Positions 2,953 through 33,420 of a DNA stretch of 64,000 nt are shown in pieces. The notes under the pieces were generated by a model. That model searched no databases and had not been told where the DNA came from. It was given only the letters and a program-made list of their open reading frames with translations. This DNA is from Candidatus Latescibacterota bacterium. GTDB lineage: Bacteria; Latescibacterota; UBA2968. Numbering within the stretch: the stretch's first letter is position 1; every line of letters starts with the position of its first letter. A program made the position numbers and the translations under genes. The stretch is taken from assembly GCA_965204375.1 (NCBI GenBank), contig OZ241986.1, positions 4,000,001-4,064,000 on the forward strand, given 5' to 3'.

Positions 2953-2974
2953 GGTGAGCCTCTTAGCATTAGAC

Positions 2975-18439: not shown

Positions 18440-18487
18440 GAACAAAATGTTCAATCGAAAAGTGAAAAGTGAACAATGTGTTCACTT
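18440..18487. promoter_or_regulatory. Two GAACA-N3-TGTTC palindromes, candidate activator binding sites
   Basis: GAACAAAATGTTC at 18440-18452 and AAGTGAACAATGTGTTCACTT at 18467-18487; cores are 31 bp apart. Confidence 0.55.
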
Positions 18488-18583
18488 CTCAATTCGATAT
18501 TCAGCCTAACTTTTACTCGACAATAATATCTATGCGAAGTAAAAATAATGACTTACAAATATTATAATTCTAAAAGTTCACAT

Positions 18584-18599
18584 TGGCACACATGTTGCA
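18584..18599 (+). promoter_or_regulatory. Sigma54 (-24/-12) promoter
   Basis: TGGCAC-ACATG-TTGCA matches the TGGCAC-N5-TTGCW consensus, about 100 bp upstream of ATG 18700. Confidence 0.75.
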
Positions 18600-18699
18600 T
18601 ATATCTGTTTAAGCAGTAAAAAATCTGTATCGAATCGTGTGGAAAGCCATGCTCTGAACCTCAAATATTTAGACCGCGTTTATCGCACTGGAGAAAAAT

Positions 18700-19050
18700 A
18701 TGAACAAACAGAAAATACTGATTATAGATCACGATCCCGGCATTCTATCGATCCTTGTGGGATTTCTGAGCGATGAACCTTATGACATAAGCACAACGAG
18801 AGATGGGATAGAAGGGCTTGAAATATTGAGACGAGAGAAGATCGATCTCGCCATCGCTGAAATGTATATGGCAGGTCTCAATGGGGTAACTCTTTTGAAG
18901 TGTCTAAAGGAAGAGAAGATTCAGACAAACGTCCTGATCATGGAAAGTTTTGTGCCCCTGGAAGTAGCCGAAAAAATACTCAAAGCCGGTACTGCAGGCG
19001 TACAAGAGAATACATGGCATTTCTCCTACCCAGTATCGCACAAAAGTTAG
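18700..19050 (+). CDS. Stand-alone atypical receiver (REC) domain protein
   Basis: KILIIDHD...DGIEGLEIL...IDLAIAEMYMAGLNG. Phosphoacceptor Asp position is Glu and the KP motif is absent. Confidence 0.75.
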   Translation: MNKQKILIIDHDPGILSILVGFLSDEPYDISTTRDGIEGLEILRREKIDLAIAEMYMAGLNGVTLLKCLKEEKIQTNVLIMESFVPLEVAEKILKAGTAGVQENTWHFSYPVSHKS

Positions 19051-19241
19051 GCGTGGAGAAATTTAGACGCTTTCGGAAGGTGTTTGAGTTGAATGTTCAG
19101 AGGATTGTTTTTTGACGATTTTGGAATGCATCTCCCGCCCATAATTCTGAACGCCCGAAAGGAGGTACGAATAGAGAACTGATTGAATCACCGCATATCG
19201 TTGTTACTCAAGCAGTATAACCCTTAACAGGAGATTGTATC

Positions 19242-19784
19242 ATGTCAGAAAGTATTTTTGAACACACCACATCCATCGCAGGACTCACCTGCAAACCACT
19301 CGCCATTCTCTCTGAGACCATTTCACAAAAAGAAATGAACAAGGCGCGGGGTGGGGGTGGGAATGGACGAATTAAGATGCCGGGTGATGGCAAGATAGAT
19401 GACGGGATCACAGGTATGGATGAGCAAGACTGTCCCACATATGATTGTTACCCTGAGGGCGGCCACTTTGATACTGAGGGAAAAACCTTTACTCAGGTAG
19501 TTGGTCCTGATGTTGTCGAGGATCCGTTTGGTCCAATTTTAGGAGGCAGTGGCGGCGGTGGCGGCGGTGGTAGCTCAGAGTCAGATAATACCAACGATGA
19601 TGAGGGCCATTTGGGGGATTTTTGGAATTTTGACTTTTCAGATGACGGCACGGAAGATGACGGCACGGAAGATGAATGCACCGTCCCTTATGATTGTGGA
19701 GATGAAGAGAACGATGAAGGTAATAATGATGAAGGTAGCGGTCTGCCCGATGAGGAGAACAGTACGGAAGGTAATAATGGATAG
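19242..19784 (+). CDS. Putative secreted precursor with double-glycine leader and acidic Gly/Cys-containing core
   Basis: AGGAG RBS; residues 27-38 ISQKEMNKARGG fit LSxxELxxIxGG; C39 exporter 4 kb downstream. Confidence 0.75.
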   Translation: MSESIFEHTTSIAGLTCKPLAILSETISQKEMNKARGGGGNGRIKMPGDGKIDDGITGMDEQDCPTYDCYPEGGHFDTEGKTFTQVVGPDVVEDPFGPILGGSGGGGGGGSSESDNTNDDEGHLGDFWNFDFSDDGTEDDGTEDECTVPYDCGDEENDEGNNDEGSGLPDEENSTEGNNG

Positions 19785-19845
19785 TTGAGGGTTCCTCGCT
19801 TTGAGTAAGCTGGCTCGCAAGAATATAAAAACAAAAGGAGGTTCT

Positions 19846-19911
19846 TTCAGGCTTGCTGGAAGAACCTCTAAATTTTATACTGTGTAGTGCAAGAATGTAT
19901 CCAGACATATA
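19846..19911 (+). promoter_or_regulatory. Duplicated 66-bp promoter element, copy 1 (TTGCTG-N17-TATACT)
   Basis: 58/66 identical to 28069-28134; -35 at 19853-19858, -10 at 19876-19881. Confidence 0.7.
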
Positions 19912-19972
19912 ATAAGAATGTATCCGAACATATATACGAAGCAATCACTTCCAGCTTTGCCAGGTATCAGAT

Positions 19973-21334
19973 ATGAAAAAAATTTATGCTCTCATCTCAT
20001 TCCTCGTATGTGTCTTGTCGGCAGGCAGTTGCGCGGACTATCAGCTTATTGGGACGGAAGTATTATCTGAAGAACTCGTCGCGCAGCATTATACCATCAA
20101 TCCCAATCTCGACGTTGTTATCGTTGTAGATCGAACAACGCCGACCTTTGAATACCAGACCTTCTACTGCGCTGGCTGGGCAGATGAAGAGGAAGGTAAA
20201 CAAGGACGGCTACATTTCTTAGAGCATATCATGTCGGGTACCGGCAGTCAGGAATATGGGAGACTCAACCAAATCGTTAGCAAGAATGGAGGACAAAAAA
20301 ATGCTACTACCTATTATCATTTTACGCGCTTCACACTGAGATTTCCAAAGGACAAATTTGATCTCGCTGTTGAAATAGACTCAGACAGATTTTACAATAC
20401 AGTAATCAATGAAGAGGTCGTAGAAAAGGAAAAGAAAATCATCCTGACAGAAAGAAACCGCATGTTGGCAAACTTAACGCGAAGATTTACGTATTATTTT
20501 TTCGATTTGGTTTATAAAAAGAAGAATTTTGATGGCTTTGGTACTGAGGCGTTTATTAAACAACTCAATCCCATTGATTTGAGAGCGTATTATGAGAATC
20601 TTCTACGCCAACAAAAGAGATTGATCGTTGTCATCGGCGATGTAGATAGAGACTATGTCCTGATGAAATTGGACGAAGCGTATAGCTCTGCCAGTGCGAT
20701 GCAATCGCATGCAGACAGGAATGAGCCAGTACCGAGCCAATTGCCTGCATCTCAATTTCCCAACCCTGAAATCCTGGGCAGAAAGTTCAGGATTACTTCA
20801 AAGAACCTCAGTATTTCCAAGTTCAGAAAGAGTTGGGACACACCAAATTTAGGGCATCGAGACTATGTGGGATTGTCCATTATAGCCAACATTTTGAACA
20901 AAACTGCAAATTCCTTAAGATCTTATGCCGTTGACTCTGGACTTGCGAGAGTTTTCCACATAGAACTGAACTACTATAAAGGATTTGGTCTGATGAGTTG
21001 TACAGCAGACCTTCCCCATACTACGTCTCCAGACGCTATCCACGATATTATTCAGGTAGAGTTAGAGAAGCTGAAATCAATTTCTGAAGATGATCTTAAT
21101 GCAGCCCGCAATGAACTATTACACCGCCTGTATTCCACATTTTATGATCACTCAAGCATGGCTTATTCATTTGGGAAGGCATTTGCCCATGCCAACGATC
21201 CCCTCCTGTATCTCAAATTGATAAACGATATCAAATCCATTCAAAAAGAAAACATTCCGCGCATCATTAATCAATACCTGACGGATGATAATTCGATAAC
21301 TGTTTACCTGACGTTAAAAAAAAACAAAGAATAA
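19973..21334 (+). CDS. M16 (pitrilysin/insulinase) zinc peptidase, catalytic subunit, exported; copy 1
   Basis: Signal peptide; inverted zincin HFLEH; GG..NA.T; downstream EK..I.TE; VVIGDVD. Confidence 0.88.
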   Translation: MKKIYALISFLVCVLSAGSCADYQLIGTEVLSEELVAQHYTINPNLDVVIVVDRTTPTFEYQTFYCAGWADEEEGKQGRLHFLEHIMSGTGSQEYGRLNQIVSKNGGQKNATTYYHFTRFTLRFPKDKFDLAVEIDSDRFYNTVINEEVVEKEKKIILTERNRMLANLTRRFTYYFFDLVYKKKNFDGFGTEAFIKQLNPIDLRAYYENLLRQQKRLIVVIGDVDRDYVLMKLDEAYSSASAMQSHADRNEPVPSQLPASQFPNPEILGRKFRITSKNLSISKFRKSWDTPNLGHRDYVGLSIIANILNKTANSLRSYAVDSGLARVFHIELNYYKGFGLMSCTADLPHTTSPDAIHDIIQVELEKLKSISEDDLNAARNELLHRLYSTFYDHSSMAYSFGKAFAHANDPLLYLKLINDIKSIQKENIPRIINQYLTDDNSITVYLTLKKNKE

Positions 21335-21443
21335 TGTGATGTGTAACTTCAAAATACCAAGCATTGAGATATAGGGAATTGTTCTTAATGTTTTTTTGAT
21401 ACAAAAAAATAGATATGAAAGTTCGCCCAAAAGGCAAATAAAT

Positions 21444-22814
21444 ATGTCTCCAAAAGTGATATTTAGCTTTGTCCTGTGTTACATGGTTGGCGTCCTATCC
21501 GCTTCTCCTGTCTGCCTTTTTGCTGCGGAAAACGCCCCACGGACTGGTATAGACAGAGTTGCAATCCCCAATCACCATATTTTTTATCGCAACGACAAAC
21601 GCGCGCCGTTGACTAAAATTGAGATTGTCTTTCTCGGGGCCGGGAGAAATCAGGAACAGCCTTCTAAGATTGGGCTTGCGGAAATGGTTTCCTGGTTAAT
21701 GTGGGAATACGCTAAAAAGCAGGGATATATAGATCAACTATCAGCATTAGGTACCCGTCTGAATGTCATTTCCAGTACACAATACCACAGGATAGTCATT
21801 TCCACCTTATCGAAGAACTGCGGCGAGTCCATAGAAATAGTCCGCGATCTCATACACAGCCTCGAGTTTTCTGAGTCTAATTTAAAATATGTAAAAAAAC
21901 TGATGGTGGCTGATTACCAAAATGGTCTGCGGAGAAGTACCTACCCGCTTATGCGAGATTTTGCACTTGCACAAACAAAAGAACTAAAAAAAACGAACTC
22001 CTTAAAAACACTCGAAAACCTCTCACATGAGGACGTCAGTCAATATTATGATCGGTTTCTGAAAACCGATGTGGTGTTTTTTAAGGTGATCTCAAACCTC
22101 GATTCCACCCGGGTTGCGAAGTTGCTTCGTCCAATTACAGAGACACGGCAAAGGGGTGGTTTTGTGCATTCACTGAAAATCCTAACAACGGATTATAGCT
22201 CTGGTCCTTCGGCTTTTGTCTTTAATTCAAACATAAAAAGTGTGTTCTGCCATTGGTTGATGCCCTGTGGCAGTGTGGGTGAAAAAAATTATATCCCCAC
22301 ACTCATATCCGATACACTTCGAGAAGATACTCATGGCCTGGTTATTCGGCATTTTAGAGAAGAATTGGGATTGGTTTATGGTCCTTCTTCTGAGGTGCGA
22401 TCGTCCGGAGGTATCAGGTATCTTAATATTTACGCCGATCCCCAACTCCAGAACAGCGAAGAATTGATTGTAAAAATGTCCGACTTCATCCGAGGACTTT
22501 CCGATAATCCTCGCTTTTGGGAGTTCCTCAAGGAACGCCGTGAAATTCTAAAGGTGTCAGATGTCTTCAACCAGACACCACAGCGAAGTCTTGACCGTGA
22601 GGTAAATAAAACCATTTACAACAGACCACAGCGAAAAGGCGGTTATGATGCAGTCACTGATGCTGAGGTGCGTGCTTTTCTCGAAAAGTTTTTTGTGCCA
22701 GAAAATATGATCATGATCTTTGTCGGACCTAAGGATCACATCATAGACATTTTGAAGAGACACTTGCCTGAAGTTGATATTCGCGTTCACGATGTCAAAG
22801 AATTGATTGAGTAA
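21444..22814 (+). CDS. M16 peptidase non-catalytic subunit, exported; copy 1
   Basis: Signal peptide; G..QE...KIGLAEM without HxxEH; FREELGLVY motif; paralogous to 30645-32000. Confidence 0.82.
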   Translation: MSPKVIFSFVLCYMVGVLSASPVCLFAAENAPRTGIDRVAIPNHHIFYRNDKRAPLTKIEIVFLGAGRNQEQPSKIGLAEMVSWLMWEYAKKQGYIDQLSALGTRLNVISSTQYHRIVISTLSKNCGESIEIVRDLIHSLEFSESNLKYVKKLMVADYQNGLRRSTYPLMRDFALAQTKELKKTNSLKTLENLSHEDVSQYYDRFLKTDVVFFKVISNLDSTRVAKLLRPITETRQRGGFVHSLKILTTDYSSGPSAFVFNSNIKSVFCHWLMPCGSVGEKNYIPTLISDTLREDTHGLVIRHFREELGLVYGPSSEVRSSGGIRYLNIYADPQLQNSEELIVKMSDFIRGLSDNPRFWEFLKERREILKVSDVFNQTPQRSLDREVNKTIYNRPQRKGGYDAVTDAEVRAFLEKFFVPENMIMIFVGPKDHIIDILKRHLPEVDIRVHDVKELIE

Positions 22815-22832
22815 ACCGTCAGAAGCGGTGTA

Positions 22833-22856
22833 CAACTGGTCGATTTACAGACCAGT
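22833..22856. repeat. Hairpin AACTGGTC-N8-GACCAGTT within the duplicated segment (second copy 32020-32043)
   Basis: Identical hairpin follows both M16 pairs; possible terminator or processing stem. Confidence 0.65.
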
Positions 22857-23053
22857 TCATCAGGATGGGCAGGATGCAAGGATGATCAGGATGAGAACCC
22901 GCAGATCAGAAGTAGGTAGGCGATAGGCGGATGCAGAGGAAGGCAAGCACGGACCTGCTTGCGTGCGGACAACCGCCCTCGCAGGCAAGTGAACAGGATG
23001 AAAACCCGTAGAGCAGAGGACGTAGCAATAACCACTGACATGAGGAACCGACT

Positions 23054-23653
23054 GTGGAAGCGTTTATTATTTTGACCATTCTCATTATCGTATTTCTGGT
23101 GATCGGTGGCCGATGGGCAAAGAATTTCTTTGGTTGCTGCTGCCACGAGTGTGGAACCAAAATGCAGCCTTATGAGAAATTGTCCGATAGTGATAAGTCT
23201 GATATTCTGACATATTTCAGACGTTTTGAAGACCGCGAGCCAGACGTGGAGGGCATTTTTGCGTGTGGGAATTGCCTGCTGGTGTACGATGACTTTTCGG
23301 GCGAAAAGCGAACAATGGATGGCGACGAAAGGTCATTCTGCAAGGTGTGCAATTCCTATGGTGTATCGTATATAGGCCCCATGTCGTCTGACGATTTGGA
23401 GAAATTTCAGGAGCGGAACAAAAACCTGATTGAACCAATTGAGTGTCTCAGATGCAAAAGAAATCCTATAGGGGAGTATGACTGTGTGCCCTGCGACACA
23501 GAGATCAAGATAACGGCTTGTCGGCGTTGCTATTCGATCTATGCACAGATGCCAGTTAATGGTAGTCGATACAGATTTCAGGTCCTGCTTTCGGACAGGG
23601 AAATCATCAAAGATACACCCGACTCAAAATGGGGTGTATTTGAACCCGAGTAA
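23054..23653 (+). CDS. Cys-rich membrane-anchored protein (six CxxC), copy 1
   Basis: N-terminal TM; CHEC, CGNC, CKVC, CLRC, CVPC, CRRC; close paralogue at 32790. Confidence 0.8.
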   Translation: MEAFIILTILIIVFLVIGGRWAKNFFGCCCHECGTKMQPYEKLSDSDKSDILTYFRRFEDREPDVEGIFACGNCLLVYDDFSGEKRTMDGDERSFCKVCNSYGVSYIGPMSSDDLEKFQERNKNLIEPIECLRCKRNPIGEYDCVPCDTEIKITACRRCYSIYAQMPVNGSRYRFQVLLSDREIIKDTPDSKWGVFEPE

Positions 23654-23678
23654 ACGGTTATATGCGGTTTGAAACATT

Positions 23679-23711
23679 CTGGATTGCGGCTAAAACCATG
23701 CCGCAATGACA
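23679..23711. repeat. 33-bp REP-like palindrome, copy 1
   Basis: CTGGATTGCGGCTAAAACCATGCCGCAATGACA is the exact reverse complement of 53341-53373. Confidence 0.85.
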
Positions 23712-23781
23712 CCCATTATTCGTCACTTTTCACATCTATATCCGTGTTAATCCGTGTTAATCTGTAGCTGCATTTGAAAAC

Positions 23782-26700
23782 ATGATAAAACGAACCGACC
23801 TATATGCCTCTCTGAGACCTCATGCAGAGAAAATGCAGGTCAATCTCGGGGAGGTTTTATTTTCTGAAGGCGACAGGGGCGATTGTTTTTACTATGTCGT
23901 ATCCGGGCAACTCAGGGTTTTAACGAGAGACCCCAATAACGAGATGCAAACCCTGGGTTATCTCTTTCCCGGCGACCATTGCGGAGAAGGCGCGTTGCTC
24001 ACAGGTAAACCGCGCAGGGCAACGGTTCGAGCGGTTGAACCCTCAATCGTGCTAAAAATATCTCAAAGAGGCTTTCACGCCCTCGTATCAGAGCATCGGG
24101 AACTGACTCCTTACCTGCTCGACCAAGTGCAGGACATCGCCTATCGGAACTTCACAAAATTTCTGAAACTGGACACTGTAAACCTCCCTGAAGCCATGCA
24201 GCTTTTCTTTCAATGTCTGGAGCGGAAAGTTATTGCAGCAGAGGAAAAAGCATTATGGCGAGATGAAGAAGCAAAAGGACTCTATCTCATTGGGCGCGGA
24301 ACCTTGCAATTGAGAGAGGCGGACCAGCCCGCCAAAAGGTTAAAACCGGGCGACTTTTTTGGCGGCATAGATGATCAGCTCACTATTGAAACAGAAACAG
24401 AAGTCGTGCTCTACACCCTTTCGCACATCGCCCTCGCCAGAGTGCTTGAAAGTGCCCCCCAACTCATCCGGGTTTTCGAGAAGACCGATCAGAATGAACA
24501 AGAAGAACCGCTCAAGATATTGCCACAAAATGGTCGGATTAAAACGATAGAGATCGAGCCTGAAAATAGCATCTCGGATCACAGCCCTCGAAAACTGCGA
24601 AACTACATCACATTTCCCTACATCAAACAACACGATGAGACCGATTGCGGCGCGGCTTGTCTCGGCATGATCTGTCAGTATTATGGGCAATCCATTGGCT
24701 TAAACCGTCTGCGAGACATGGCCAATGTCTCGCGGGAAGGCACATCCCTATCTGCGCTTGCCGAAGCCGCTGAAAACCTGGGCTTTTTAACGCGAGGTGT
24801 GCGGATTGGATACAGTGAAATCGGAGACAGAGACCTGCCACTTATCGCGCACTGGGAAGGCTATCACTTTGTCGTTCTGTATCGGATCAGTTCAAAATAC
24901 GCATGGATAACAGACCCTGCACTTGGGCGCAGAAAAATTTCTCGCAAAGAATTTGAAGACAAATGGTCCAAACTCGCCTTAATACTCGAATACACCGACA
25001 AGGTCTCGAGATACAGGGGAAGAAAATCATCGTTCAGGCGGTTTTTCCCACTCGCCCGCCCATATCTCGGCATCCTCGTCGAAATCATGATGGCCTCCCT
25101 TTTGCTGAACCTCTTTGGCCTTGCCTCACCTCTTTTTACCCAGATGATCCTCGACCAGGTCCTCGTTCATCAAGATACCAGTCTGCTCAATCTCATGCTT
25201 TTAGGCATGATCATTATCGCCTTATTTCGGATCGCCACATCTTCGCTGCGCAACTACCTGATAGGGTATGTGGGGGCGCGCATCAGTATCTCGATGTTAT
25301 CGCACATCTACCACCATCTTCTCCGTCTGCCCATGCGATTTTTCGCCCTCCGCAGAACCGGTGAAATCATGACGCGCTTTCGAGAAAGCCAGTACTTGAG
25401 AAGCTTATTGACAGAAACGGCTATTTCAGCCGTCCTTGATGCGGTCATGATTTTTGTCTATTTGGGTCTGATGTTCTATTACCACACCACTTTGACACTT
25501 TGGGTTTTGGCATTCATACCGCTTAGCATTATCCTGACATTGATCTACACCCCCATCCTCAAGTCCATCAACCAACGATCTTTTCTCGCCCGTTCGGAAT
25601 GGTCATCCGTACTCATCGATTCCCTGCGTGGCATTGAAGTCATAAAAACCCTCGCAGTCGAAAAATCCACGCGATGGTTATGGGAAGAACGCTTGACCCA
25701 GGAAATCAAAATTGGTTTTACCGCGATCAAAACAAATATGCTATTTGGGTCTTTTGGACAGTTGAACAAGGTTTTGGGTAGCACCATCGTGCTCTGGTAT
25801 GGCGCGAACCTGGTCATTCAAGGCGACTTATCAGTCGGTCAGCTAATCGCTTTCAATATGCTCAGTGGCAGTGTATTGGGACCGATCATGGGATTGATTA
25901 ACCTGTGGCCACAGATTCAACTGGCGAAAATAGGACTGGACCGATTAAACGACATCTACGATATGCGAACCGAGTCATCGCGCAACCGCAACTATTCGGT
26001 TCAACTCACAGACGTAGAGGGACACATCGCATTTGACAACGTGTTCTTCCGGTATGGATCGGGATCGACAGAGCCTTATGTCTTAAGCGATATAAATTTG
26101 GACATAAGACCCGGACAGAAAGTAGCCATAGTAGGTCGTAGCGGTGCGGGCAAGACAACACTGGTAAAACTCATACCCCGACTATTTGATCCCACAGAGG
26201 GATCAGTCACCCTCGATGGTACAGACCTGCGCGAATTGGAACAAGCAGAGATCGCATTTAAAAAAGCTGAATTTGATCTGCAACAAACCCTGCCGCAAAA
26301 AAGAATTCTGGCAAAAGAGACCATCTCCGCGCTTGAACATCGCGTTCGTGTCATGCAAGCCGCGATGCAGACCTACCGGGAAGCACTTGGGAATCATACA
26401 GAAACGTCTCAACCTCCCGATATCGAGATCGAAATACAATTCCGATCCGCAGAAGTAGAACATTTGAAACAGCGATATGAGCAAAACCAAAAATTGTACG
26501 AAAAGAAACTCATCAGCCTTGCGGCACTAAATGAAGCCAAAGTTCGCTATCTGAGCGCGTTGGCAGAACTGCCCGCGCGGATGGCAGAGATCAATCGCTA
26601 TGAGGTATCCCTAAAAGACTTAAAACGCCAAATCCTCGAAGAACGACTCGAACTTGAACGCACGCGAGCCAATTTCCAAAATGCTTATGACATTGCAGCA

Positions 26701-27222
26701 GCCAGACTCAAACAGGCGAGACAAGCGGTTAATCGATCCGTTGACGCAGACATCGATTTAATTCTCGCACCCGAATCGGGAATCGTCACACAAGTACTGG
26801 TCAATACACCCGGTCAAGTAGTCAATAAAGGCGAGACACTGGTAACCATTGCGCCAGCCTCGACACCGATTGTAGCCGAAGCTCTGATCTTGAACAAAGA
26901 CGTGGGTCTGCTGTCATCTGGACAAAAGGTAAAACTCAAATTTGAAGCATTTCCATTTCAGGACTACGGCATCCAACACGGCTATTTGAGACAGATTTCA
27001 CCTGATGCAATGGGCGATGAGGGTTCGGGAACCGTGTTTAGAGGTATTATTGATCTTGAGAACACGACCATTCTTGTACACGGCGAGGAAAAAGCGTTCA
27101 TGTTCGGCATGAAGGGCACAGCAGAAATCATAACAGATCGCCAGTCCATTTTGATGCTCGCGCTCAATCCATTGCGACAATTGCGCGAAATAGCCGCACT
27201 TTCGCCAGAGGCTGAAAAATAA
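23782..27222 (+). CDS. cNMP-binding / C39 peptidase / ABC transporter fused in frame to HlyD-type adaptor C-terminus
   Basis: cNMP domain (GDHCGEGALL..PRRATVRA), QHDETDCGAACL..HFVV..DP, TM domain, Walker A GRSGAGKTT, then coiled coil and HlyD motifs ILAPESGIV, LKFEAFPFQDYG, ISPDA. Confidence 0.85.
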   Translation: MIKRTDLYASLRPHAEKMQVNLGEVLFSEGDRGDCFYYVVSGQLRVLTRDPNNEMQTLGYLFPGDHCGEGALLTGKPRRATVRAVEPSIVLKISQRGFHALVSEHRELTPYLLDQVQDIAYRNFTKFLKLDTVNLPEAMQLFFQCLERKVIAAEEKALWRDEEAKGLYLIGRGTLQLREADQPAKRLKPGDFFGGIDDQLTIETETEVVLYTLSHIALARVLESAPQLIRVFEKTDQNEQEEPLKILPQNGRIKTIEIEPENSISDHSPRKLRNYITFPYIKQHDETDCGAACLGMICQYYGQSIGLNRLRDMANVSREGTSLSALAEAAENLGFLTRGVRIGYSEIGDRDLPLIAHWEGYHFVVLYRISSKYAWITDPALGRRKISRKEFEDKWSKLALILEYTDKVSRYRGRKSSFRRFFPLARPYLGILVEIMMASLLLNLFGLASPLFTQMILDQVLVHQDTSLLNLMLLGMIIIALFRIATSSLRNYLIGYVGARISISMLSHIYHHLLRLPMRFFALRRTGEIMTRFRESQYLRSLLTETAISAVLDAVMIFVYLGLMFYYHTTLTLWVLAFIPLSIILTLIYTPILKSINQRSFLARSEWSSVLIDSLRGIEVIKTLAVEKSTRWLWEERLTQEIKIGFTAIKTNMLFGSFGQLNKVLGSTIVLWYGANLVIQGDLSVGQLIAFNMLSGSVLGPIMGLINLWPQIQLAKIGLDRLNDIYDMRTESSRNRNYSVQLTDVEGHIAFDNVFFRYGSGSTEPYVLSDINLDIRPGQKVAIVGRSGAGKTTLVKLIPRLFDPTEGSVTLDGTDLRELEQAEIAFKKAEFDLQQTLPQKRILAKETISALEHRVRVMQAAMQTYREALGNHTETSQPPDIEIEIQFRSAEVEHLKQRYEQNQKLYEKKLISLAALNEAKVRYLSALAELPARMAEINRYEVSLKDLKRQILEERLELERTRANFQNAYDIAAARLKQARQAVNRSVDADIDLILAPESGIVTQVLVNTPGQVVNKGETLVTIAPASTPIVAEALILNKDVGLLSSGQKVKLKFEAFPFQDYGIQHGYLRQISPDAMGDEGSGTVFRGIIDLENTTILVHGEEKAFMFGMKGTAEIITDRQSILMLALNPLRQLREIAALSPEAEK

Positions 27223-27223
27223 A

Positions 27224-28045
27224 ATGGCTGATTCAATTGATCCCGTCATCATTCAAATAAACGAGACACAAATCCGTTTATCTCATATCGTGAAATCAAT
27301 GCGGGCGGCTAACAAGGACAGCTTGCACGACCTCTTTACGCAACGCGGTCTGATCTTCCAAATTGCCCAACGAGAAAAAATTAAAATTTCTCGTGAGGAA
27401 CTGCAAAAGAGTATAGACCAATGGCGGTATAAAAACAGATTGGAAAGTGTTGAGGATACAGAAAACTATTTATCACAACGCAATATCTCCTTCACTGACA
27501 TGGCACGGGAAATTGAATACCAGATGCTCCAGGAGCGATTGAAAACGCAAATCACCACTGAGCAAATTCAAGCGCATTTTGCAAGCCAGAAATTGGCGTC
27601 TGAACGGCGGGAAATATGCTGGATTCTGGTCCAGGAACGAGACATTGCCGAAGAGATCGCCATGCAGATCAGAGACGGAGGACGAGATTTTCATACCCTC
27701 GCGCGTCAATATTCCCTCGATGAGCGCACGCGCCCTGCCAGCGGGTATCTCGGTCGCCAGAGCCGACGAGACTTGCTCCATGATGTTGCGCCCTTATTAT
27801 TTGCCGCCGAAGTAGGGTCGGTCATTGGCCCCATAAAAGTAGAAACAGGCTATGCGCTGTATTATATTCAACAACACTGCCCCGCTGTACTCGATGAAGC
27901 CACAAAAGCGCGTTGTGTGCAGGAACTCTATCAACTTCGTTTAAAACGCGAAGCAAAGCGCAGTCACATATCGTATCCATTCCTATATTCGATATACACA
28001 GAGGACGCCTTTCCCAAAGAGAATGTGCATATCTCAGAGAAGTGA
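27224..28045 (+). CDS. PpiC/parvulin-type peptidyl-prolyl isomerase (foldase)
   Basis: DFHTLARQYSLD...SGYLG...LFAAEVGSVIGPIKVETGY. Confidence 0.82.
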   Translation: MADSIDPVIIQINETQIRLSHIVKSMRAANKDSLHDLFTQRGLIFQIAQREKIKISREELQKSIDQWRYKNRLESVEDTENYLSQRNISFTDMAREIEYQMLQERLKTQITTEQIQAHFASQKLASERREICWILVQERDIAEEIAMQIRDGGRDFHTLARQYSLDERTRPASGYLGRQSRRDLLHDVAPLLFAAEVGSVIGPIKVETGYALYYIQQHCPAVLDEATKARCVQELYQLRLKREAKRSHISYPFLYSIYTEDAFPKENVHISEK

Positions 28046-28068
28046 TAATGTTCCATATCCTGATGTAA

Positions 28069-28134
28069 TTCAGGCTTGCTGGAAGAATTTTCAGATTTTA
28101 TACTGATCAGTGCAAGAATGTATCCAGACATATA
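28069..28134 (+). promoter_or_regulatory. Duplicated 66-bp promoter element, copy 2 (TTGCTG-N17-TATACT)
   Basis: -35 at 28076-28081, -10 at 28099-28104; see copy 1. Confidence 0.7.
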
Positions 28135-28144
28135 GAGGTTCGTT

Positions 28145-29131
28145 ATGAAAAAAATACGGTTGTTCAATCTCACCCTCTTGTTGATCTCGGGCCTGTTTAC
28201 AGGTTGTGGCAGTACAGGACTCTATGTTACTGTAACCCAGCCTGCTGAAATTAATCTAAAAGACTTTGACAAAATTGCGGTTGGAGAAATTAAAGGTTCG
28301 GGAAGCGGCGTCTTATCGGCACTCAGCGACCTTGTCCAGGTTGTAGGAGGTGGAGAAACCAAAGACTCAGGAAGCCATAAATTCTCCGCCGAGTTGACAC
28401 AGGTCCTCTTTGAATCTGGACGATTTGAAGTCCTGGATCACGAAAGCCTGAAGATGGGTTTTAGCCAGGACAATCTTACCGGAAATATCGCCCTCATCTC
28501 TGGCACTATTTCAGAATACAACTACAGCGAGGATTTAACCCACAAAGATGTAGAGAAAAAAGATAAAAAGACGGGTGAAGTCGATACCACGCGAACATAC
28601 TATCGTGAAGGAATTACAAAAGTAAGTGTCAGCCTGCGTATTGCGGATTTGCGCACATCAAAAATTTTAGCAACCAGGAAGTTTGACAAATCTGAGAGCG
28701 CAAAAGAATCGAGGAAGAACTCAAAGCCGCCCCATATTGATCGCTCGCGTCTTTTTGAGACGTGCCGAACGCAAATTATTCGCTCTTTTATGCGGATGAT
28801 TGTGCCTTATACCGAGCGTGTATATGTCTCATTTGAAACCGACAAAGAAATGCCAGAATTGGAACGTGGCTTTAAAATGGTCAAGCTGGGCAATTGGGAT
28901 GCTGCGCTTGACATCTTTCAAAGGGTAACCGAGACTTATCCCAATTCCCCTTTAGTCCATAAGGCATATTACAATCTTGGTCTGGGCTATATGTACACGG
29001 ATCAGTTCGACCAGGCGCGAACTGCATTAGAAGAAGCCTATGCCAGGAAGTCCGAAGCAAAATATCTAAATGCTATCAAAAAACTGAATATACGCATTGA
29101 AGATAAGCGTCGGCTGGAAGAGCAGATGTGA
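28145..29131 (+). CDS. Lipoprotein with CsgG-like N-terminal region and C-terminal TPR repeats
   Basis: Lipobox LFTGC; L.ESGRFEVLD; TPR AYYNLGLGY...FDQARTALEEA. Confidence 0.75.
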   Translation: MKKIRLFNLTLLLISGLFTGCGSTGLYVTVTQPAEINLKDFDKIAVGEIKGSGSGVLSALSDLVQVVGGGETKDSGSHKFSAELTQVLFESGRFEVLDHESLKMGFSQDNLTGNIALISGTISEYNYSEDLTHKDVEKKDKKTGEVDTTRTYYREGITKVSVSLRIADLRTSKILATRKFDKSESAKESRKNSKPPHIDRSRLFETCRTQIIRSFMRMIVPYTERVYVSFETDKEMPELERGFKMVKLGNWDAALDIFQRVTETYPNSPLVHKAYYNLGLGYMYTDQFDQARTALEEAYARKSEAKYLNAIKKLNIRIEDKRRLEEQM

Positions 29132-29185
29132 TTTGGCTCAGAGGATGTACGAAACGGCTATTTCCAACTTTGCCGAGTATCAAAC

Positions 29186-30673
29186 ATGATAAAAACCTGC
29201 GCGATCATCTCATTCCTCGTATGCATCTTGCCAACGGGCACTTGCCATTCTTATCAGCTTGTTGGAGCGGAAGCATTATCTGAAGAACTCGTCGCGCAAC
29301 ACTACACCATCAACACCAACCTCGACGCCGTCATCGTTGTAGATAGAACAATCCCAACCTTTGAATACCATACCTACTACAGTGCTGGCTCGACAGATGA
29401 AGAGGAAGGGAAACAAGGACGGCTACACTTCTTAGAGCACATCATGGCAGGTACTGGAAGCCATGAGCCGGGAAAACTCAACGAAATTATCGTCAAGAAT
29501 GGAGGTCAAAATTATGCCGCTACAACTATCCATCATATGTACTTAAGAATGCGATTTCCGAAGGACAAATTTGACCTTGCAGTTGAAATAGACCGCGATA
29601 GATATTACGGCACGTTGATCAATGAAGAGGTCGTTGAAAACGAAAAGAAAATTGTACTAACGGAAAAAAGTCGTAATTCAGCAAACTCAAACAGAAAATT
29701 CTCCAATCGTTTTTGGGGCCTGGTCTATAAAAAAAAGGATTTTAGTGGCGTTGGGACTGAGGACTTTATTAAACAACTCGAAGCCGATGATTTGGAAGAT
29801 TACTATGATAATTTCCTGCGCCGCCAGAAGAGATTGGTCGTGGTGGTCGGCGATGTGGATATGGACCATGTCCTGACCAAACTGGACGAAGCCTATGGCA
29901 ATGAGCAAATACCAGACGAATTATCGAGCGAATCACCTTCTCCTCAATTTCCCAATCCTGAAATACTCGAAAAAAAAGTAAAAGACACTTCAAAAAGTCT
30001 CCGTATTGCCAAATTCAGGAAAAGTTGGCAAACCCCTCATTTAGGCCATCGCGACTATGCAACCTTGCTCATTCTTGCTCGCATTATGACCAAAACCTCT
30101 AATTCCTTGCGATCTTCTGTGATTGATGCCAAGCTCGCCCGGATTTTCAGGGTGTCGTTTTACCACTATAAAGGATTTAGTTTGCTGAGTTGCACGGCAG
30201 ACCTGCCGACCGACGCTTCCATAGATGCTATAGAGAATGCTATCCAAACAGAATTGGAGGAAATTAGAGCGAGCGGTGTCTCTGAGGACGAATTTACTGC
30301 GGCCCAAAATCTGCAATTAAAATCAATGTATTCCAGATTTTATGACAGATCGAGAATGGCCCTTGAGTTCGGGCGGGCATTCGCCCATGCCAACGATCCC
30401 TTACTATATCCAAAAATGATAAAAGATCTCAAATCTGCCCGCAGAGACGACATACCGCGCCTTGTAGATCAATATCTGACGAATGACAATTCCATAACCC
30501 TCTCACTAACGATGCCAGAAAAAAAACGGTCTCTAATCACCGTGATATTTGGGAGTATTCTCATTATTTTTCCAGCTATTATGGTTCTATTTCCTGTGAT
30601 ATGGTTTATCAGAAAACTGATTAGTAAATCCTCCCCAAAGGCCAATGAATATGCTCCTGAAAGTGATACTTAG
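29186..30673 (+). CDS. M16 zinc peptidase, catalytic subunit, exported, with C-terminal TM anchor; copy 2
   Basis: HFLEH; paralogue of 19973; hydrophobic tail ITVIFGSILIIFPAIMVLFPVIWFI. Confidence 0.88.
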   Translation: MIKTCAIISFLVCILPTGTCHSYQLVGAEALSEELVAQHYTINTNLDAVIVVDRTIPTFEYHTYYSAGSTDEEEGKQGRLHFLEHIMAGTGSHEPGKLNEIIVKNGGQNYAATTIHHMYLRMRFPKDKFDLAVEIDRDRYYGTLINEEVVENEKKIVLTEKSRNSANSNRKFSNRFWGLVYKKKDFSGVGTEDFIKQLEADDLEDYYDNFLRRQKRLVVVVGDVDMDHVLTKLDEAYGNEQIPDELSSESPSPQFPNPEILEKKVKDTSKSLRIAKFRKSWQTPHLGHRDYATLLILARIMTKTSNSLRSSVIDAKLARIFRVSFYHYKGFSLLSCTADLPTDASIDAIENAIQTELEEIRASGVSEDEFTAAQNLQLKSMYSRFYDRSRMALEFGRAFAHANDPLLYPKMIKDLKSARRDDIPRLVDQYLTNDNSITLSLTMPEKKRSLITVIFGSILIIFPAIMVLFPVIWFIRKLISKSSPKANEYAPESDT

Positions 30674-32000
30674 TTTTGCCCTGTGCTACGTGGTTGGTAT
30701 CCTGTCCGCTTATGCAGAGATTTCTAACCACCAAATTTTTTATCGCCAAGACAAACGCGCCCCGTTGACCAAAATTGAAATCGTCTTTCTCGGAGCGGGA
30801 AGCAACCAGGAATCGCCTGCTCAAAATGGACTGGTAGAGATAGCCTCAAAGTTGATTTGGAAGGACATAAAAAAGCGAGGGTACATAGATCAACTGGCAG
30901 TATTAGGCACTGAGTTATATGTCTTCGCCAACACAACATCCCTGACCGTATCCATTTCTACCCTGTCTGAGAATTGCGCTGAGTCCATAGAAATAGTCCG
31001 CGATTCCATACACAACTTCGATTTTTCCGAGTCCGACCTGGAAGATGTGAAAGAGCGAGAGGTGACTAATTATCGAAATGATCGGGAAAGAAATACCGCT
31101 AATCTTATGAGAAATTTTGCACTTGCACGAACAAAAGGAATAAAGAAACTCAGATCCTTAAAAACGCTGAAAAACCTTTCTGCAAAGGACATCAGACAGT
31201 ATTATGCGCGGCTTTTGAAAACAGAAGTGGTGTTTTTTAAGATACTCTCAAACCGAGATTCCACCGAGATCACCAAAATGCTTCATCCAATTATAGAAAA
31301 ACGAGAGACCCGACGACAGGCAGGTGGGTTTGTGCATTCATTGGCACCTTCAGAGGCCAATTATTATTTTGGTCCTTCGGCTTTTGTCTTTGAGAATTAT
31401 TCAAACTTAAAAAATGTTTTCTGTTATTGGCTGATCCCCTATGGGAGTATAGGGGAAACAAATTATATTTCTCCAATGATATCCATGATGCTTGGGCGAT
31501 CTGGTGCCCAAGGGTTGCTCTACAAATATTTTAGAGAAGAGTTGGGATTGGTCTATAGTACTGCTTGCAGTTATCGATCATCAAAAAATATCAGGTTTCT
31601 CGAAATTTATGCAGATCCCCAGTTACAGAACAGCGAAGAACTGATTGTAAAAATGTCCGACTTCATCCGAGGGCTTCCCGACAACCCCCGCTTTTGGGAG
31701 GGAATAAAAGCGTTGCGTGAGAATAGCAATATCGCCTATGCCCATGTCCATGAACGATTGACACCACAACAAAGACTGAACAGGGAGGTATATAGCGCCA
31801 TCTATAATCCTCCAAGCCGCAAAGGCGGTTATGATTCGGTTACTGATGAGGAGGTGTATGCCTTTCTCGAAAAATTCTTTGTCCCGCAGAATATGATCAT
31901 GATCTTTGTCGGTCCGAAGGATTACATCATAGACATTCTGAATAGACACTTGCCTGAAGTTGATATTCGCGTTCACAATACCAAAGAATTGATTGAGTAA
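30645..32000 (+). CDS. M16 peptidase non-catalytic subunit, exported; copy 2
   Basis: No HxxEH; FREELGLVY; paralogue of 21444. Confidence 0.82.
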   Translation: MNMLLKVILSFALCYVVGILSAYAEISNHQIFYRQDKRAPLTKIEIVFLGAGSNQESPAQNGLVEIASKLIWKDIKKRGYIDQLAVLGTELYVFANTTSLTVSISTLSENCAESIEIVRDSIHNFDFSESDLEDVKEREVTNYRNDRERNTANLMRNFALARTKGIKKLRSLKTLKNLSAKDIRQYYARLLKTEVVFFKILSNRDSTEITKMLHPIIEKRETRRQAGGFVHSLAPSEANYYFGPSAFVFENYSNLKNVFCYWLIPYGSIGETNYISPMISMMLGRSGAQGLLYKYFREELGLVYSTACSYRSSKNIRFLEIYADPQLQNSEELIVKMSDFIRGLPDNPRFWEGIKALRENSNIAYAHVHERLTPQQRLNREVYSAIYNPPSRKGGYDSVTDEEVYAFLEKFFVPQNMIMIFVGPKDYIIDILNRHLPEVDIRVHNTKELIE

Positions 32001-32218
32001 ACTGTCTGAAGCGGTGTACAACTGGTCGATTTACAGACCAGTTCATCAGAGCCTGCACTGGAGTGATTCTATCCAGTGATGGGCAGGATGGAAGGATGGC
32101 CAGGATGAGAATCCGTAGATCATGAGTATCGGTTGTTTACTTTGCGACTGGGTTTGGATATATTTTATGGGTGACCATTACTGGGATGCCTCTCCCCTTT
32201 TTAAGGAGGACAATCACA

Positions 32219-32449
32219 ATGAGCAATGATATAACTACAGAAGCGACAGTCACGCTGAGCATTCAGCAACTGGAAGGACTTATCCGCAAGGTGGTTCGTG
32301 AAGAACTCATCGAATTGGTAAAACAGAAACCAGAAATTTTCAACCTCGATAAGAACGCTCCGCTTTATGAGGATATGGAGGATATTCTTAAAAGAAAAAA
32401 ATCAGGTCAATTGAAGTTTTATACGCACGCAGAAATTTGGGATGAATGA
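32219..32449 (+). CDS. Putative antitoxin
   Basis: AAGGAGG RBS; 76 aa, LEGLIRKVVREEL...YTHAEIW; overlaps the toxin start. Confidence 0.6.
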   Translation: MSNDITTEATVTLSIQQLEGLIRKVVREELIELVKQKPEIFNLDKNAPLYEDMEDILKRKKSGQLKFYTHAEIWDE

Positions 32450-32771
32450 ATATCAAGCGTTTTATGAGGGTCGATTCGCCCGAAACCTTTCGCGCTATTC
32501 GAATATACGCCAGCGCATCAAGCGAAGAGTTGAGCAGATTCTCAAAAACCCCTATGATCGCACAGAACGTCTTGGGCAGGTTTCTGGAGGATTAGATTTG
32601 CGGGGTTGCCGCAGTGCTCGGGTGGATAGAAACTTCAGATTGATTTTTGTTATCTGTGAAGAATGTCGGTATATACAAGCGTGTCAGTATTGCCTTTGCG
32701 AGGGCAGAGAAGATAAAACAATTGTTTTCTTAACGGTTGGGCCACACAATAGGGCTTATACGATGAGATGA
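32442..32771 (+). CDS. RelE/ParE-like toxin with Cys-rich insertion
   Basis: ILKNPY, LRGCRSARVDRNFRLIF, FLTVGPHNRAY; insert CEEC..CQYC.C. Confidence 0.7.
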   Translation: MNEYQAFYEGRFARNLSRYSNIRQRIKRRVEQILKNPYDRTERLGQVSGGLDLRGCRSARVDRNFRLIFVICEECRYIQACQYCLCEGREDKTIVFLTVGPHNRAYTMR

Positions 32772-32789
32772 ACATAGAACGGATAAAAA

Positions 32790-33392
32790 ATGGAAGCGTT
32801 TATTATTATGATCATCATCGTTACCGTAGTTCTGGTGCTTGGTGGCCGATGGGCAAAAAATTTCTTTGGTTGCTGCTGCCACGAGTGTGGATCCAAAATG
32901 CAACCATTCGAAAAATTGTCCAATGGTGATAAGTCCGATATTCTGGCTTACTTTAAGCGGTTTGAGGACCGCGAGCCAGACGCGGAGGGCATTTTCGTTT
33001 GTAACAATTGCCTGATTGTGTACGATGATTTTTCGGGCGAAAAACGAACGATGGATGGTGACGAAAGATCTTTCTGCAAGGTGTGCAACTCTTCAGGTGT
33101 ATGGTATATAGGCTCCATAGTGTCTCCTAATGAATTGGAGAAATTCCAGGAACGGAATAAAAACCTGATTGAACGAGTTGAGTGCCTGCGATGCCAAAGA
33201 AAACCGGCAGGGTTTTGGGACTGTATTCCATGCGACACAGAGATCAAGATAACGGCTTGCCGACGTTGCTATTCCATTTATACCTGGATGCCTTTTGGCA
33301 GAAGTCGATACAGATTTCATGTCCTGCTTTCGGACAGGGAAATCATCAAGGACTCACCCGACTCAAAGTGGGGTGTATTTGAGTTCGAGTAA
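32790..33392 (+). CDS. Cys-rich membrane-anchored protein (six CxxC), copy 2
   Basis: Colinear paralogue of 23054-23653. Confidence 0.8.
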   Translation: MEAFIIMIIIVTVVLVLGGRWAKNFFGCCCHECGSKMQPFEKLSNGDKSDILAYFKRFEDREPDAEGIFVCNNCLIVYDDFSGEKRTMDGDERSFCKVCNSSGVWYIGSIVSPNELEKFQERNKNLIERVECLRCQRKPAGFWDCIPCDTEIKITACRRCYSIYTWMPFGRSRYRFHVLLSDREIIKDSPDSKWGVFEFE

Positions 33393-33420
33393 ACGACCTT
33401 ATGCAAAGCAGATCGAAACA

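What the first reader, a model, noticed from the sequence alone, without database searches (positions are those of the whole stretch)
18440..33392. Candidate undescribed secreted-peptide system: GG-leader acidic precursor, PCAT/HlyD, parvulin, exported M16 pairs, Cys-rich membrane proteins and TPR lipoprotein
Seen: 15 kb of co-oriented genes bounded by a sigma54 promoter and a terminator. They encode a double-glycine precursor, a C39-peptidase exporter with adaptor, a parvulin, two active/inactive M16 pairs with signal peptides, two six-CxxC membrane proteins and a TPR lipoprotein. Established: C39 ABC transporters cleave after GG and export the core, and M16 active/inactive pairs process peptides in some pathways (PqqF/PqqG, AlbE/AlbF, mitochondrial processing peptidase). 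No recognisable tailoring enzyme (radical SAM, LanM, YcaO, ATP-grasp) is present, and the M16s are extracytoplasmic. Inference: a two-step system in which an acidic polypeptide is exported and then trimmed, captured or degraded at the envelope (signalling, metal binding or host interaction). I do not recognise this combination.
Basis: partly seen in the sequence, partly recalled or inferred. Interest (0 to 1): 0.85.

Follow-up and report, generated by a model that had tools for sequence, protein, structure and literature searches.

The report
Polymorphic secreted peptides with matched proteases
One genus of uncultured Latescibacterota carries mobile gene cassettes that export highly variable acidic proteins, each type travelling with its own exported protease pair that most likely destroys the incoming protein as self-protection; the copy in this window has lost a working exporter and regulator but kept the proteases.

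Summary
The locus is real but misread in three ways. Its exporter is broken: an in-frame deletion of about 920 bases fuses half the ATPase to half of HlyD. Its regulator has lost its AraC domain. It is a composite of a producer cassette and a tail block (TPR, M16 pair, Cys protein) that stands alone in a relative. In relatives the cassette is a family: all 10 orthologous exporters and all 14 precursors with this leader lie beside M16 genes. 68 precursor clusters share the leader (87% identity) but not the acidic core (25%). M16 type tracks the first 60 core residues (r 0.43, 24 pairs), not the last 55; 7 of 8 held-out precursors fit. M16 pairs occur in all 21 genomes of the genus, precursors in 8, and stand-alone pairs stay under purifying selection. 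Best reading (0.5): microcin-like polymorphic export system whose periplasmic M16 heterodimers are type-specific protective proteases, the window being a non-producer. The chassis plus an M16 gene was described in silico in cyanobacteria (group II clusters); the type-matched exported pair was not found in ten literature searches. No activity is shown.

The parts
18584..18599 (+). sigma-54 promoter consensus (-24/-12) heading the cassette
   Evidence: one match in the window, 0.05 expected; also in front of the regulator in L064, L065, L066
18700..19050 (+). truncated receiver-AraC regulator (receiver only; about 410 bases with the DNA-binding domain deleted)
   Evidence: PF00072; relatives are 260-284 aa with PF12833/PF00165; deletion mapped
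19242..19784 (+). precursor: 38-residue GG leader (19242-19355) and 142-residue acidic core, 14.7 kDa, of N-module type T1
   Evidence: leader alignment; 68 clusters with this leader; no Pfam or NCBIfam family; mass
19837..19881 (+). 14-pair hairpin with U tract after the precursor, overlapping a sigma-70-like element (TTGCTG-17-TATACT, 19853-19881)
   Evidence: 25 copies, 95% of cells paired, 4 pairs with changes on both sides; kept upstream of many precursor-less M16 pairs. Promoter role inferred
19973..21334 (+). M16a1: catalytic M16B subunit (HxxEH + E160), signal peptide, no C-terminal anchor; closest to type T2, not to the type of the adjacent precursor
21396..22814 (+). M16b1: non-catalytic partner with R/Y pair, signal peptide (probable start 21444)
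23054..23653 (+). Cys-rich membrane protein 1: N-terminal helix, six CxxC, domain probably cytoplasmic
   Evidence: more K/R after the helix than before in 63 of 69 family members
23782..27222 (+). broken exporter: cNMP-C39-TMD-half ATPase fused in frame to the C-terminal part of HlyD (junction 26230-26235)
   Evidence: C39 Cys/His/Asp intact; junction spanned by contigs of runs X1 and X2
27224..28045 (+). parvulin/rotamase without signal peptide (cytoplasmic chaperone of the exporter, inferred)
   Evidence: PF00639; TIGR04500 E 1e-19, below cut-off
28069..28134 (+). second copy of the post-precursor element, 5' hairpin arm lost, promoter-like half kept; start of the tail block
   Evidence: repeat D10
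28145..29131 (+). TPR lipoprotein with weak CsgG/DUF6340-like N-domain; passenger of the tail block
   Evidence: among the fetched loci seen only here and in L096 (93% identity)
29186..30673 (+). M16a2: catalytic subunit with signal peptide and C-terminal membrane anchor; T1-like, the type that goes with this precursor
30645..32000 (+). M16b2: non-catalytic partner
32171..32771 (+). small gene (antitoxin by position) and ParE/RelE-like toxin gene; passenger
   Evidence: PF05016 E 9e-4, below cut-off; same pair at this hot spot in L066, L067, L136
32790..33392 (+). Cys-rich membrane protein 2 (80% identical to protein 1)
   Evidence: AlphaFold model pLDDT 90
33420..33450 (+). terminator-like hairpin facing the converging relA-like gene

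Best explanation
A mobile, microcin-like competition cassette with proteolytic, type-specific self-protection. In an intact copy a sigma-54 promoter and a receiver-AraC regulator drive a precursor; a cytoplasmic parvulin holds it; the cNMP-C39 exporter cuts after GG and, with HlyD and a TolC from elsewhere in the genome, sends the 100-180-residue acidic core straight out of the cell. The core is modular: the N-terminal module carries the activity and defines the type, the C-terminal module is freely exchanged (uptake or receptor choice, by analogy with class II microcins). Core that re-enters a cell reaches the periplasm, where a Sec-exported M16B heterodimer, usually anchored to the inner membrane, recognises the N-terminal module of its own type and cuts it. 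Strains collect several M16 types and keep them after losing the producer genes. The window is such a silenced producer that still holds a T1-like (own) and a T2-like (foreign) pair. Shown: gene content, linkage, motifs, deletions, covariation, purifying selection. Inferred: cleavage after GG and one-step export (established for the family), periplasmic location (heuristic signal peptides), heterodimer, cutting of the core, toxicity, and any role of the Cys-rich protein as a second protective factor.
For: Linkage: 10 of 10 orthologous exporter loci (79-95% identity, 9 genomes) have an M16 gene just upstream; 14 of 14 leader matches in 53 genomes lie in such loci. Polymorphism: leader identity median 87%, core 25% over 68 clusters; 18 N-module and 17 tail clusters in 33 combinations. 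Type matching: over 24 precursor-M16a pairs M16a similarity follows the first 60 core residues (Mantel r 0.43, p 0.0003; the 13 pairs not used before r 0.42) but not the last 55 (r 0.07), although the tail lies between them on the DNA, nor the leader (r 0.17, p 0.085); 7 of 8 held-out assignable precursors share a contig with the predicted M16a type (similarity 0.81-0.97; non-matching copies on those contigs 0.53-0.68). Old alleles on a young chassis: in 7 cassettes dS is 0.86 for M16a and 0.75 for M16b against 0.30 for the exporter. Protection outlasts production: M16a in 21 of 21 genomes of the genus, precursor in 8; export trio intact in 6 of 12 loci; stand-alone copies are interleaved with cassette copies on the tree, 8 of 21 keep the post-precursor hairpin, and two sets have dN/dS 0.26-0.31; one chromosomal site holds the full cassette in L064 and only M16a-M16b-Cys in L074, L075, L078. 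Same slot, other proteases: 13 of 20 fetched paralogous exporter loci carry CPBP/CAAX, DUF3267, S41 or an unrelated M16 pair in or next to the cluster; one has precursors that hit Bacteriocin_IIc (E 4e-5, below cut-off). Precedent: CAAX protease BlpY in immunity and exporter-dead 'cheaters' in the pneumococcal blp locus (PMC4517551, passages); N-terminal activity and C-terminal uptake in class II microcins (PMC10233263, passages); one-step export past the periplasm (PMC12219008, passages); M16 HrrP degrading host peptides (PMC8175422, abstract).
Against: No toxicity is shown, and cores this acidic (median net charge -36) and large are unlike known class II microcins (5-10 kDa; PMC10233263). 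The first test on 11 pairs from fetched loci was negative for the whole core (r 0.08 with M16a, -0.07 with M16b; one of 8 tests at p 0.045). In the window the adjacent M16a1 is not the matching type and the tail copy matches only moderately (0.73-0.77). G009 (L067) has precursor and intact exporter genes but an insertion sequence has removed the adjacent M16a, and its two other copies are of other types; the insertion may however silence the exporter. Active-site segments have raised but sub-neutral dN/dS (0.37, 0.51 against 0.20; segments chosen after seeing the variation). Genus g6 has the M16 pair (11 of 15) and no precursor with this leader (0 of 15), so the pair may have an older job. 4 of the 20 paralogous loci show no candidate protective gene of a recognised family.
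Confidence: 0.5

Rival explanations
1. Cognate activation or reception: the M16 pair does recognise its own type, but the cut releases the active product (a private signal or matured peptide). Stand-alone pairs are listeners; the Cys-rich protein may relay the event across the membrane.
For: The same covariation. M16B heterodimers mature RiPPs: AlbE/AlbF (PMC12731061, passages), PttP1/PttP2 (PMC10885120, passage); M16 in cyanobacterial group II clusters was read as a second processing enzyme (PMC3140520, section 5). The Cys-rich protein has an inward-facing zinc-type domain.
Against: One-step export bypasses the periplasm, so an outgoing core would not meet the protease. No sensor kinase or transporter lies in the cassette; the Cys-rich gene is missing from several cassettes (L062, L065, L079) and lives alone across the phylum. 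A maturation enzyme would not be kept in 13 genomes without a detected precursor.
Confidence: 0.22
2. Linkage without cognate function: the M16 pair is a general envelope peptidase (for host peptides or nutrients, HrrP-like) that hitch-hikes on a mobile cassette; the covariation is shared descent with gene conversion in the precursor tail.
For: Single-copy M16 pairs in 11 of 15 g6 genomes without this precursor; a conserved stand-alone site in the genus (site H, 8 copies); spread diagnostic residues; window and G009 mismatches.
Against: Site-H copies nest inside cassette-type clades rather than at the root (FastTree, one outgroup); M16 alleles are about three times older than the exporters they sit with; an unrelated M16 pair (27% and 23% identity, found in 1 of 168 genomes) fills the same slot in a paralogous cluster (L108).
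Confidence: 0.18
3. Private scavenger: the Asp/Glu/Cys-rich core is a secreted metal- or calcium-binding protein that is taken back up and digested by the matching M16 pair to release its load, as FusC does with ferredoxin; polymorphism keeps the good private.
For: Cores are 28% Asp+Glu with paired Cys; periplasmic M16 proteases digest imported proteins in Fus and Ydd/PqqL systems (PMC6793856, passages).
Against: No TonB-dependent receptor or inner-membrane importer in any of the 12 cassette loci, whereas Fus-type clusters pair receptor and protease; paralogous clusters export non-acidic, glycine-zipper-like cores.
Confidence: 0.1

Closest known systems
Cyanobacterial bacteriocin gene clusters, groups I and II (Wang, Fewer, Sivonen 2011, PMC3140520; predicted in silico)
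   Same: Long-type exporter (CAP_ED/cNMP + C39 + ABC), HlyD and a rotamase; M16 genes in group II; frequent truncations, insertions and frameshifts.
   Different: Group II also has an APH/ChoK-like kinase and HetP-like precursors, both lacking here; here the M16 is an exported heterodimer that varies with the cargo type and is kept without the exporter; cargo is a 100-180-residue acidic mosaic.
Class II microcins (MccV type; PMC10233263, PMC12219008)
   Same: GG leader, C39 exporter + membrane fusion protein + shared TolC, no tailoring enzyme, modular core, protective gene next to the precursor.
   Different: Cores are larger (14.7 kDa here) and far more acidic; the adjacent gene is a 900-residue protease pair, not a membrane protein of at most 216 residues; activity unknown.
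Pneumococcal blp locus (PMC4517551)
   Same: Variable region of GG precursors and protective genes incl. proteases; exporter often dead while protection is kept.
   Different: Gram-positive, CAAX rather than M16 proteases, peptide-pheromone two-component control; an analogy, no homology beyond the exporter family.
M16B heterodimers SPH2681/SPH2682 (PDB 3amj, 3ami), AlbE/AlbF, PttP1/PttP2; FusC/PqqL; HrrP
   Same: HxxEH + distal Glu in one subunit, R/Y pair in the partner; best solved relative is 3amj (E 8e-18).
   Different: Many co-existing alleles that follow a polymorphic substrate; C-terminal membrane anchor in 42 of 53 catalytic subunits; no TonB-dependent receptor in the operon.

Membership tests
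Cyanobacterial group II bacteriocin cluster | long-type C39 exporter with N-terminal cNMP/CAP_ED domain | tested here: met
   PF00027 + PF03412 + PF00664 + PF00005; complete in relatives, broken in the window
Cyanobacterial group II bacteriocin cluster | HlyD and rotamase (SurA-like) genes | tested here: met
Cyanobacterial group II bacteriocin cluster | M16 peptidase gene | tested here: met
   whether the cyanobacterial M16s are exported pairs was not examined
Cyanobacterial group II bacteriocin cluster | APH/ChoK-like kinase | tested here: not met
   none among the 13 ORFs; none seen in the gene maps of the cassette loci
Cyanobacterial group II bacteriocin cluster | HetP-like precursor | tested here: not met
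   precursor has no Pfam hit at E 0.1 and no NCBIfam hit at E 0.001
Class II microcin | double-glycine leader and C39 exporter with intact Cys/His/Asp | tested here: met
Class II microcin | membrane fusion protein and TolC-like channel | tested here: met
   HlyD in relatives; 14 OEP domain matches over cut-off, in 7 places, in G000
Class II microcin | mature size about 5-10 kDa | tested here: not met
   142 residues, 14.7 kDa; family 101-181 residues
Class II microcin | small inner-membrane immunity protein next to the precursor | tested here: inconclusive
   the adjacent genes are M16s; the 200-residue Cys-rich membrane protein follows them and is absent from some cassettes
Class II microcin | antibacterial activity | not testable with these tools
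   needs an assay
M16B heterodimeric peptidase | HxxEH and distal Glu in the first subunit | tested here: met
   53 of 53 M16a; aligned to 3amj
M16B heterodimeric peptidase | partner without HxxEH but with R/Y pair | tested here: met
   0 of 55 M16b have HxxEH; R321 and Y328 invariant in 44 aligned M16b; motif as in PMC12731061 (passage)
M16B heterodimeric peptidase | the two subunits form an active dimer | not tested
   they co-vary (r 0.47, p 0.005) but binding was not scored
Radical-SAM RiPP (ranthipeptide-like) | radical SAM/SPASM maturase dedicated to the precursor | tested here: not met
   none in the window; in 2 of 12 loci (L061, L069) one lies upstream but has its own small peptide gene, as do its two 90%-identical copies elsewhere in G000
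Fus / Ydd-PqqL protein import system | TonB-dependent transporter encoded with the M16 protease | tested here: not met
   none in the window or in the gene maps of the cassette loci

The most novel reading that the evidence does not exclude
A new class of large, acidic, modular interbacterial toxins (or private signals) whose cognate immunity factor is an exported M16 metallopeptidase heterodimer that co-diversifies with the N-terminal module of its substrate, with strains stocking libraries of M16 alleles as orphan immunity; sister clusters use CAAX, zincin, S41 or another M16 protease in the same slot, so protease-based immunity would be the rule for this exporter family.
Probability: 0.4. 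Interest if true: 0.82.

Novelty: new variant of a known kind. Interest (0 to 1): 0.67.

Why it matters
If the reading holds, M16 peptidases, known as maturation enzymes, nutrient-processing enzymes and degraders of host peptides, gain a new role as lock-and-key immunity factors, and six natural substrate-enzyme types give a ready panel for asking how a clamshell protease changes specificity. It would also show strain-level warfare or private signalling, with producers and non-producing keepers of protection, in an uncultured phylum, and add unmodified acidic proteins of about 11-20 kDa to what C39 exporters secrete. The Cys-rich protein is a confidently modelled multi-zinc membrane protein of no named family.

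Tried and rejected
Complex prediction of M16a1 + M16b1 + Zn with the core: no answer, score 0.01 against a mark of 0.32, controls not run; it also used the pair that later proved not to be the matching type. AlphaFold of the precursor: pLDDT 42.6, no usable model. Fold searches with the Cys-rich model: no Foldseek match at E 0.001, best VIA-align Z 2.9; this does not show the fold is new. ESM Atlas: best 0.84 (unnamed) for the Cys protein, 0.78 for the precursor, both at chance level. PADLOC: nothing of weight. Idea that a basic helix after the zinc ligand marks a charge-reversed pocket for acidic cores: dropped, the same stretch is Arg-rich in 3amj. Idea that the radical-SAM enzyme upstream in L061 and L069 modifies these precursors: rejected, it has its own peptide. 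Idea that the exporter fusion is an assembly error: rejected. Idea that stand-alone site-H copies are the ancestral housekeeping enzyme: not supported by the tree, which is a fast tree with one distant root. A maximum-likelihood tree run was killed. Metagenome scan with broad Cys-family alignments was not possible; a narrower one gave 18 loci, of which 9 were mapped (6 with the gene located) and none showed exporter, precursor or M16. Literature searches with no paper holding all terms; searches gave the papers cited. PMC12993501 (sponge Latescibacterota) holds no 'M16', 'C39' or 'bacteriocin' in its main text (supplements not seen). Three cyanobacterial and Burkholderia plasmid relatives of the exporter were opened: two annotated ones have HlyD and PPIase genes and no annotated M16, the third has no annotation.

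Full report
What is in the window. Thirteen ORFs run on the + strand from 18700 to 33392 between a sugar ABC operon and a converging relA-like gene. A sigma-54 consensus lies at 18584-18599, the single match in the window against 0.05 expected (a looser pattern has 91 matches in the genome), and a terminator-like hairpin at 33420-33450. Pfam gives a receiver domain, two M16 pairs, a cNMP-C39-ABC-HlyD ORF, a rotamase, a TPR protein and a weak ParE-like toxin; precursor and Cys-rich proteins have no family. Named relatives are Candidatus Latescibacterota genomes. The habitat is not established by my calls.

The window's copy is broken twice. The 1146-residue exporter lacks 923 bases against an intact relative; the ends meet in frame at a 6-base microhomology at 26230-26235. 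Signature, Walker B and H-loop are gone while the C39 Cys, His and Asp are intact. Contigs of two short-read runs cross the junction without mismatch (7990 and 1563 bases); both runs are of one study and may be the source, so this excludes a polishing error but is not independent support. The regulator has lost about 410 bases with its AraC domain. G000 has three C39 exporters, one intact (C1:250627), and seven TolC-like genes. The block TPR-M16a-M16b-Cys stands alone at the same chromosomal site in a relative (L096), so the 15 kb is a producer cassette plus a tail block.

The cassette is a family. Among 41 genomes, 10 other loci in 9 genomes of the same genus have an exporter 79-95% identical, and each has an M16 gene just upstream; an eleventh locus (L079) has two regulator-precursor-M16 units before a 77-residue exporter remnant. 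With the window that is 12 loci at several chromosomal sites; exporter, HlyD and parvulin are all intact in 6 (frameshifts in two others could be assembly errors). A leader profile finds 14 precursors in 8 of 53 genomes of the order, all in these loci. In the protein collection 68 clusters share the leader: leader identity median 87%, core identity median 25%, cores 101-181 residues, median net charge -36, 28% Asp+Glu. Cores are mosaics: 18 N-module and 17 tail clusters in 33 combinations, one tail joined to 8 N-types (thresholds are mine). A hairpin after the precursor stop has compensatory changes (25 copies, 95% paired, 4 pairs changed on both sides, 0 of 500 shuffles as high on the covariation score; kin inflate this) and overlaps a sigma-70-like element.

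The M16 pairs. All 53 collected M16a have HxxEH and the distal Glu, none of 55 M16b has HxxEH; M16b has an invariant R/Y pair, the M16B heterodimer pattern (PMC12731061, passages); the best solved relative is 3amj. A hydrophobicity heuristic finds signal-peptide-like N-termini in 46 of 46 scorable M16a and 44 of 48 M16b (7 of each could not be scored) and a C-terminal anchor in 42 of 53 M16a. This subfamily was found in 21 of 21 genomes of the genus, 11 of 15 of genus g6 and none of the other 47 genera of 168 genomes at E 1e-70 with one query. Of 47 fetched copies in the genus, by my labels 11 follow a precursor, 7 lie elsewhere in a cassette locus and 29 stand alone within the 14-20 kb fetched (three of these beside a different peptide cluster); stand-alone and cassette copies are interleaved on a fast tree. 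Eight of 21 scattered stand-alone copies, and none of 8 at the conserved site H, keep the post-precursor hairpin. Two sets of six stand-alone copies have dN/dS 0.31 and 0.26; within seven cassettes M16a and M16b have dS 0.86 and 0.75 against 0.30 for the exporter and 0.39 for the parvulin.

Does the protease match its cargo? With the 11 pairs from fetched loci the answer was mostly no (whole core r 0.08 with M16a, -0.07 with M16b; first 60 residues against M16a r 0.24, p 0.045, one of 8 tests). I added 13 pairs by matching precursors to M16a that share an identical longest-contig length; only the best 120 of 249 and of 242 hits were listed, so most of the 68 precursors stayed unpaired, and adjacency is inferred. 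Over 24 pairs M16a similarity follows the first 60 core residues (r 0.43, p 0.0003; the 13 new pairs alone r 0.42) and not the last 55 (r 0.07) or the leader (r 0.17, p 0.085). The tail lies between N-module and M16a on the DNA, so simple linkage predicts the opposite gradient. On seven further contigs with several genes, 7 of 8 assignable precursors had the predicted M16a type (0.81-0.97; other copies 0.53-0.68); two precursors with no near neighbour were left out, and the miss lay on a contig with one listed M16a that matched its other precursor. Six types emerge. The window's precursor is T1; M16a1 beside it is T2-like (0.78) and M16a2 in the tail T1-like (0.77). Against a functional match: kin are not independent, diagnostic residues are spread over positions 94-417, active-site segments reach dN/dS of only 0.37 and 0.51 against 0.20 (chosen after the fact), and G009 keeps precursor and exporter genes while an insertion has removed the adjacent M16a.

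The wider family. I fetched 20 of the 47 paralogous exporter matches. Most carry GT4/GT28 glycosyltransferases and GG precursors with related leaders; 13 of 20 have a CPBP/CAAX, DUF3267, S41 or M16 gene in or next to the cluster (seven confirmed by Pfam, the rest by BLAST to those). One holds an unrelated M16 pair directly between precursor and exporter (L108; found in 1 of 168 genomes), one has precursors that hit Bacteriocin_IIc below cut-off. The Cys-rich protein gives a confident model (pLDDT 90, pTM 0.82, membrane helix 2-26); 133 representatives are known and 54 of 168 genomes of the phylum have one. Outside the cassettes it is solitary or in tandem arrays of two or three without exporter, precursor or M16; a distant subtype sits in some paralogous clusters. 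It is optional in the M16 cassettes. A radical-SAM enzyme upstream of two cassettes belongs to its own peptide.

Mechanism. A C39 exporter with HlyD and TolC delivers cargo from cytoplasm to the outside in one step (PMC12219008, passages), so a periplasmic protease meets only returning cargo. A protease that matches the N-terminal module, outnumbers the producers, survives their loss and is replaced by other proteases in sister clusters is best read as type-specific protection (0.5). This mirrors class II microcins, where the N-terminus gives activity and the C-terminus uptake (PMC10233263, passages), and the blp locus, with protease immunity and exporter-dead cheaters (PMC4517551, passages). 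Rivals: cognate activation or signal reception (0.22), hitch-hiking of a general peptidase such as HrrP (0.18; PMC8175422, abstract), private metal scavenging as with FusC (0.10; PMC6793856, passages). Toxicity, cleavage and location are all untested.

Comparison and verdict. The chassis of cNMP-C39 exporter, HlyD and rotamase, with an M16 gene in group II, was described in silico for cyanobacteria (PMC3140520, passages, section 5 and Table S2; PMC4558948, passages), so the gene combination is not new in outline; but group II's kinase and HetP-like precursors are lacking, and size excludes class II microcins. M16 heterodimers as maturation enzymes are known (PMC10885120, passage). None of ten searches showed an exported, type-matched M16 pair with a polymorphic GG cargo; subscription papers and most supplements were not searched. 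New variant of a known kind; interest 0.67.

Noticed in passing
L104-L110, L112, L115, L117, L121 (exporter-HlyD junctions): In 11 of 11 paralogous loci examined (picked from 20 for their short gaps) the exporter ends in TGA followed in frame, after 0, 3 or 27 bases, by the HlyD start; the four orthologous loci checked end in TAA out of frame. Stop read-through to an exporter-HlyD fusion is possible.
   Followed up: partly
G000 C1:247047-255924 and C1:5824244-5832713; L104-L123: A paralogous family of clusters with GT4/GT28 glycosyltransferases, GG precursors and the same export trio: candidate glycosylated microcin-like peptides with no described relative seen. The second G000 copy is also broken.
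   Followed up: partly
L061:10770-11171, L062:9502-9924, L066, L067, L070, L078: An unnamed 133-146-residue protein follows M16b in six loci, in place of or beside the Cys-rich gene; no Pfam or NCBIfam hit.
   Followed up: no
L174-L176, L178, L188 (G033, G044, G030, G039, G008): Tandem arrays of one to three divergent Cys-rich membrane genes at a fixed site in genus g6, like an orphan-immunity array.
   Followed up: partly
G000 C1:3588505-3600616, 3692035-3701969, 3780623-3789509: Three more peptide clusters headed by the same receiver-AraC regulator family (two with sigma-54 sites), with CPBP-like, S41-like or S8-like protease genes beside their precursors (labels partly from sequence reading).
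   Followed up: no
G000 C1:3057150-3058814 and 3606748-3608406; L061:146-1748; L069:16591-18246: Small Cys/Pro/acidic peptide plus RRE-radical SAM cassette; its peptides end in an acidic Trp tail like many cores of the M16 cassettes, and in two relatives it sits directly before them.
   Followed up: partly
window 22815-22915, 23665-23727, 32000-32130: Short intergenic repeat families with dozens of copies in the genome flank the modules; possible recombination sites.
   Followed up: no
window 18164-18700 and 28000-33420: The site between the sugar ABC operon and the relA-like gene is an insertion hot spot: different mixes of cassette, M16 pairs and the toxin-antitoxin pair in L065-L068, L070, L096, L136-L138.
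   Followed up: partly
window 2005-5000 and 48900-51400: Strong GC- and AT-skew excursions; not examined.
   Followed up: no
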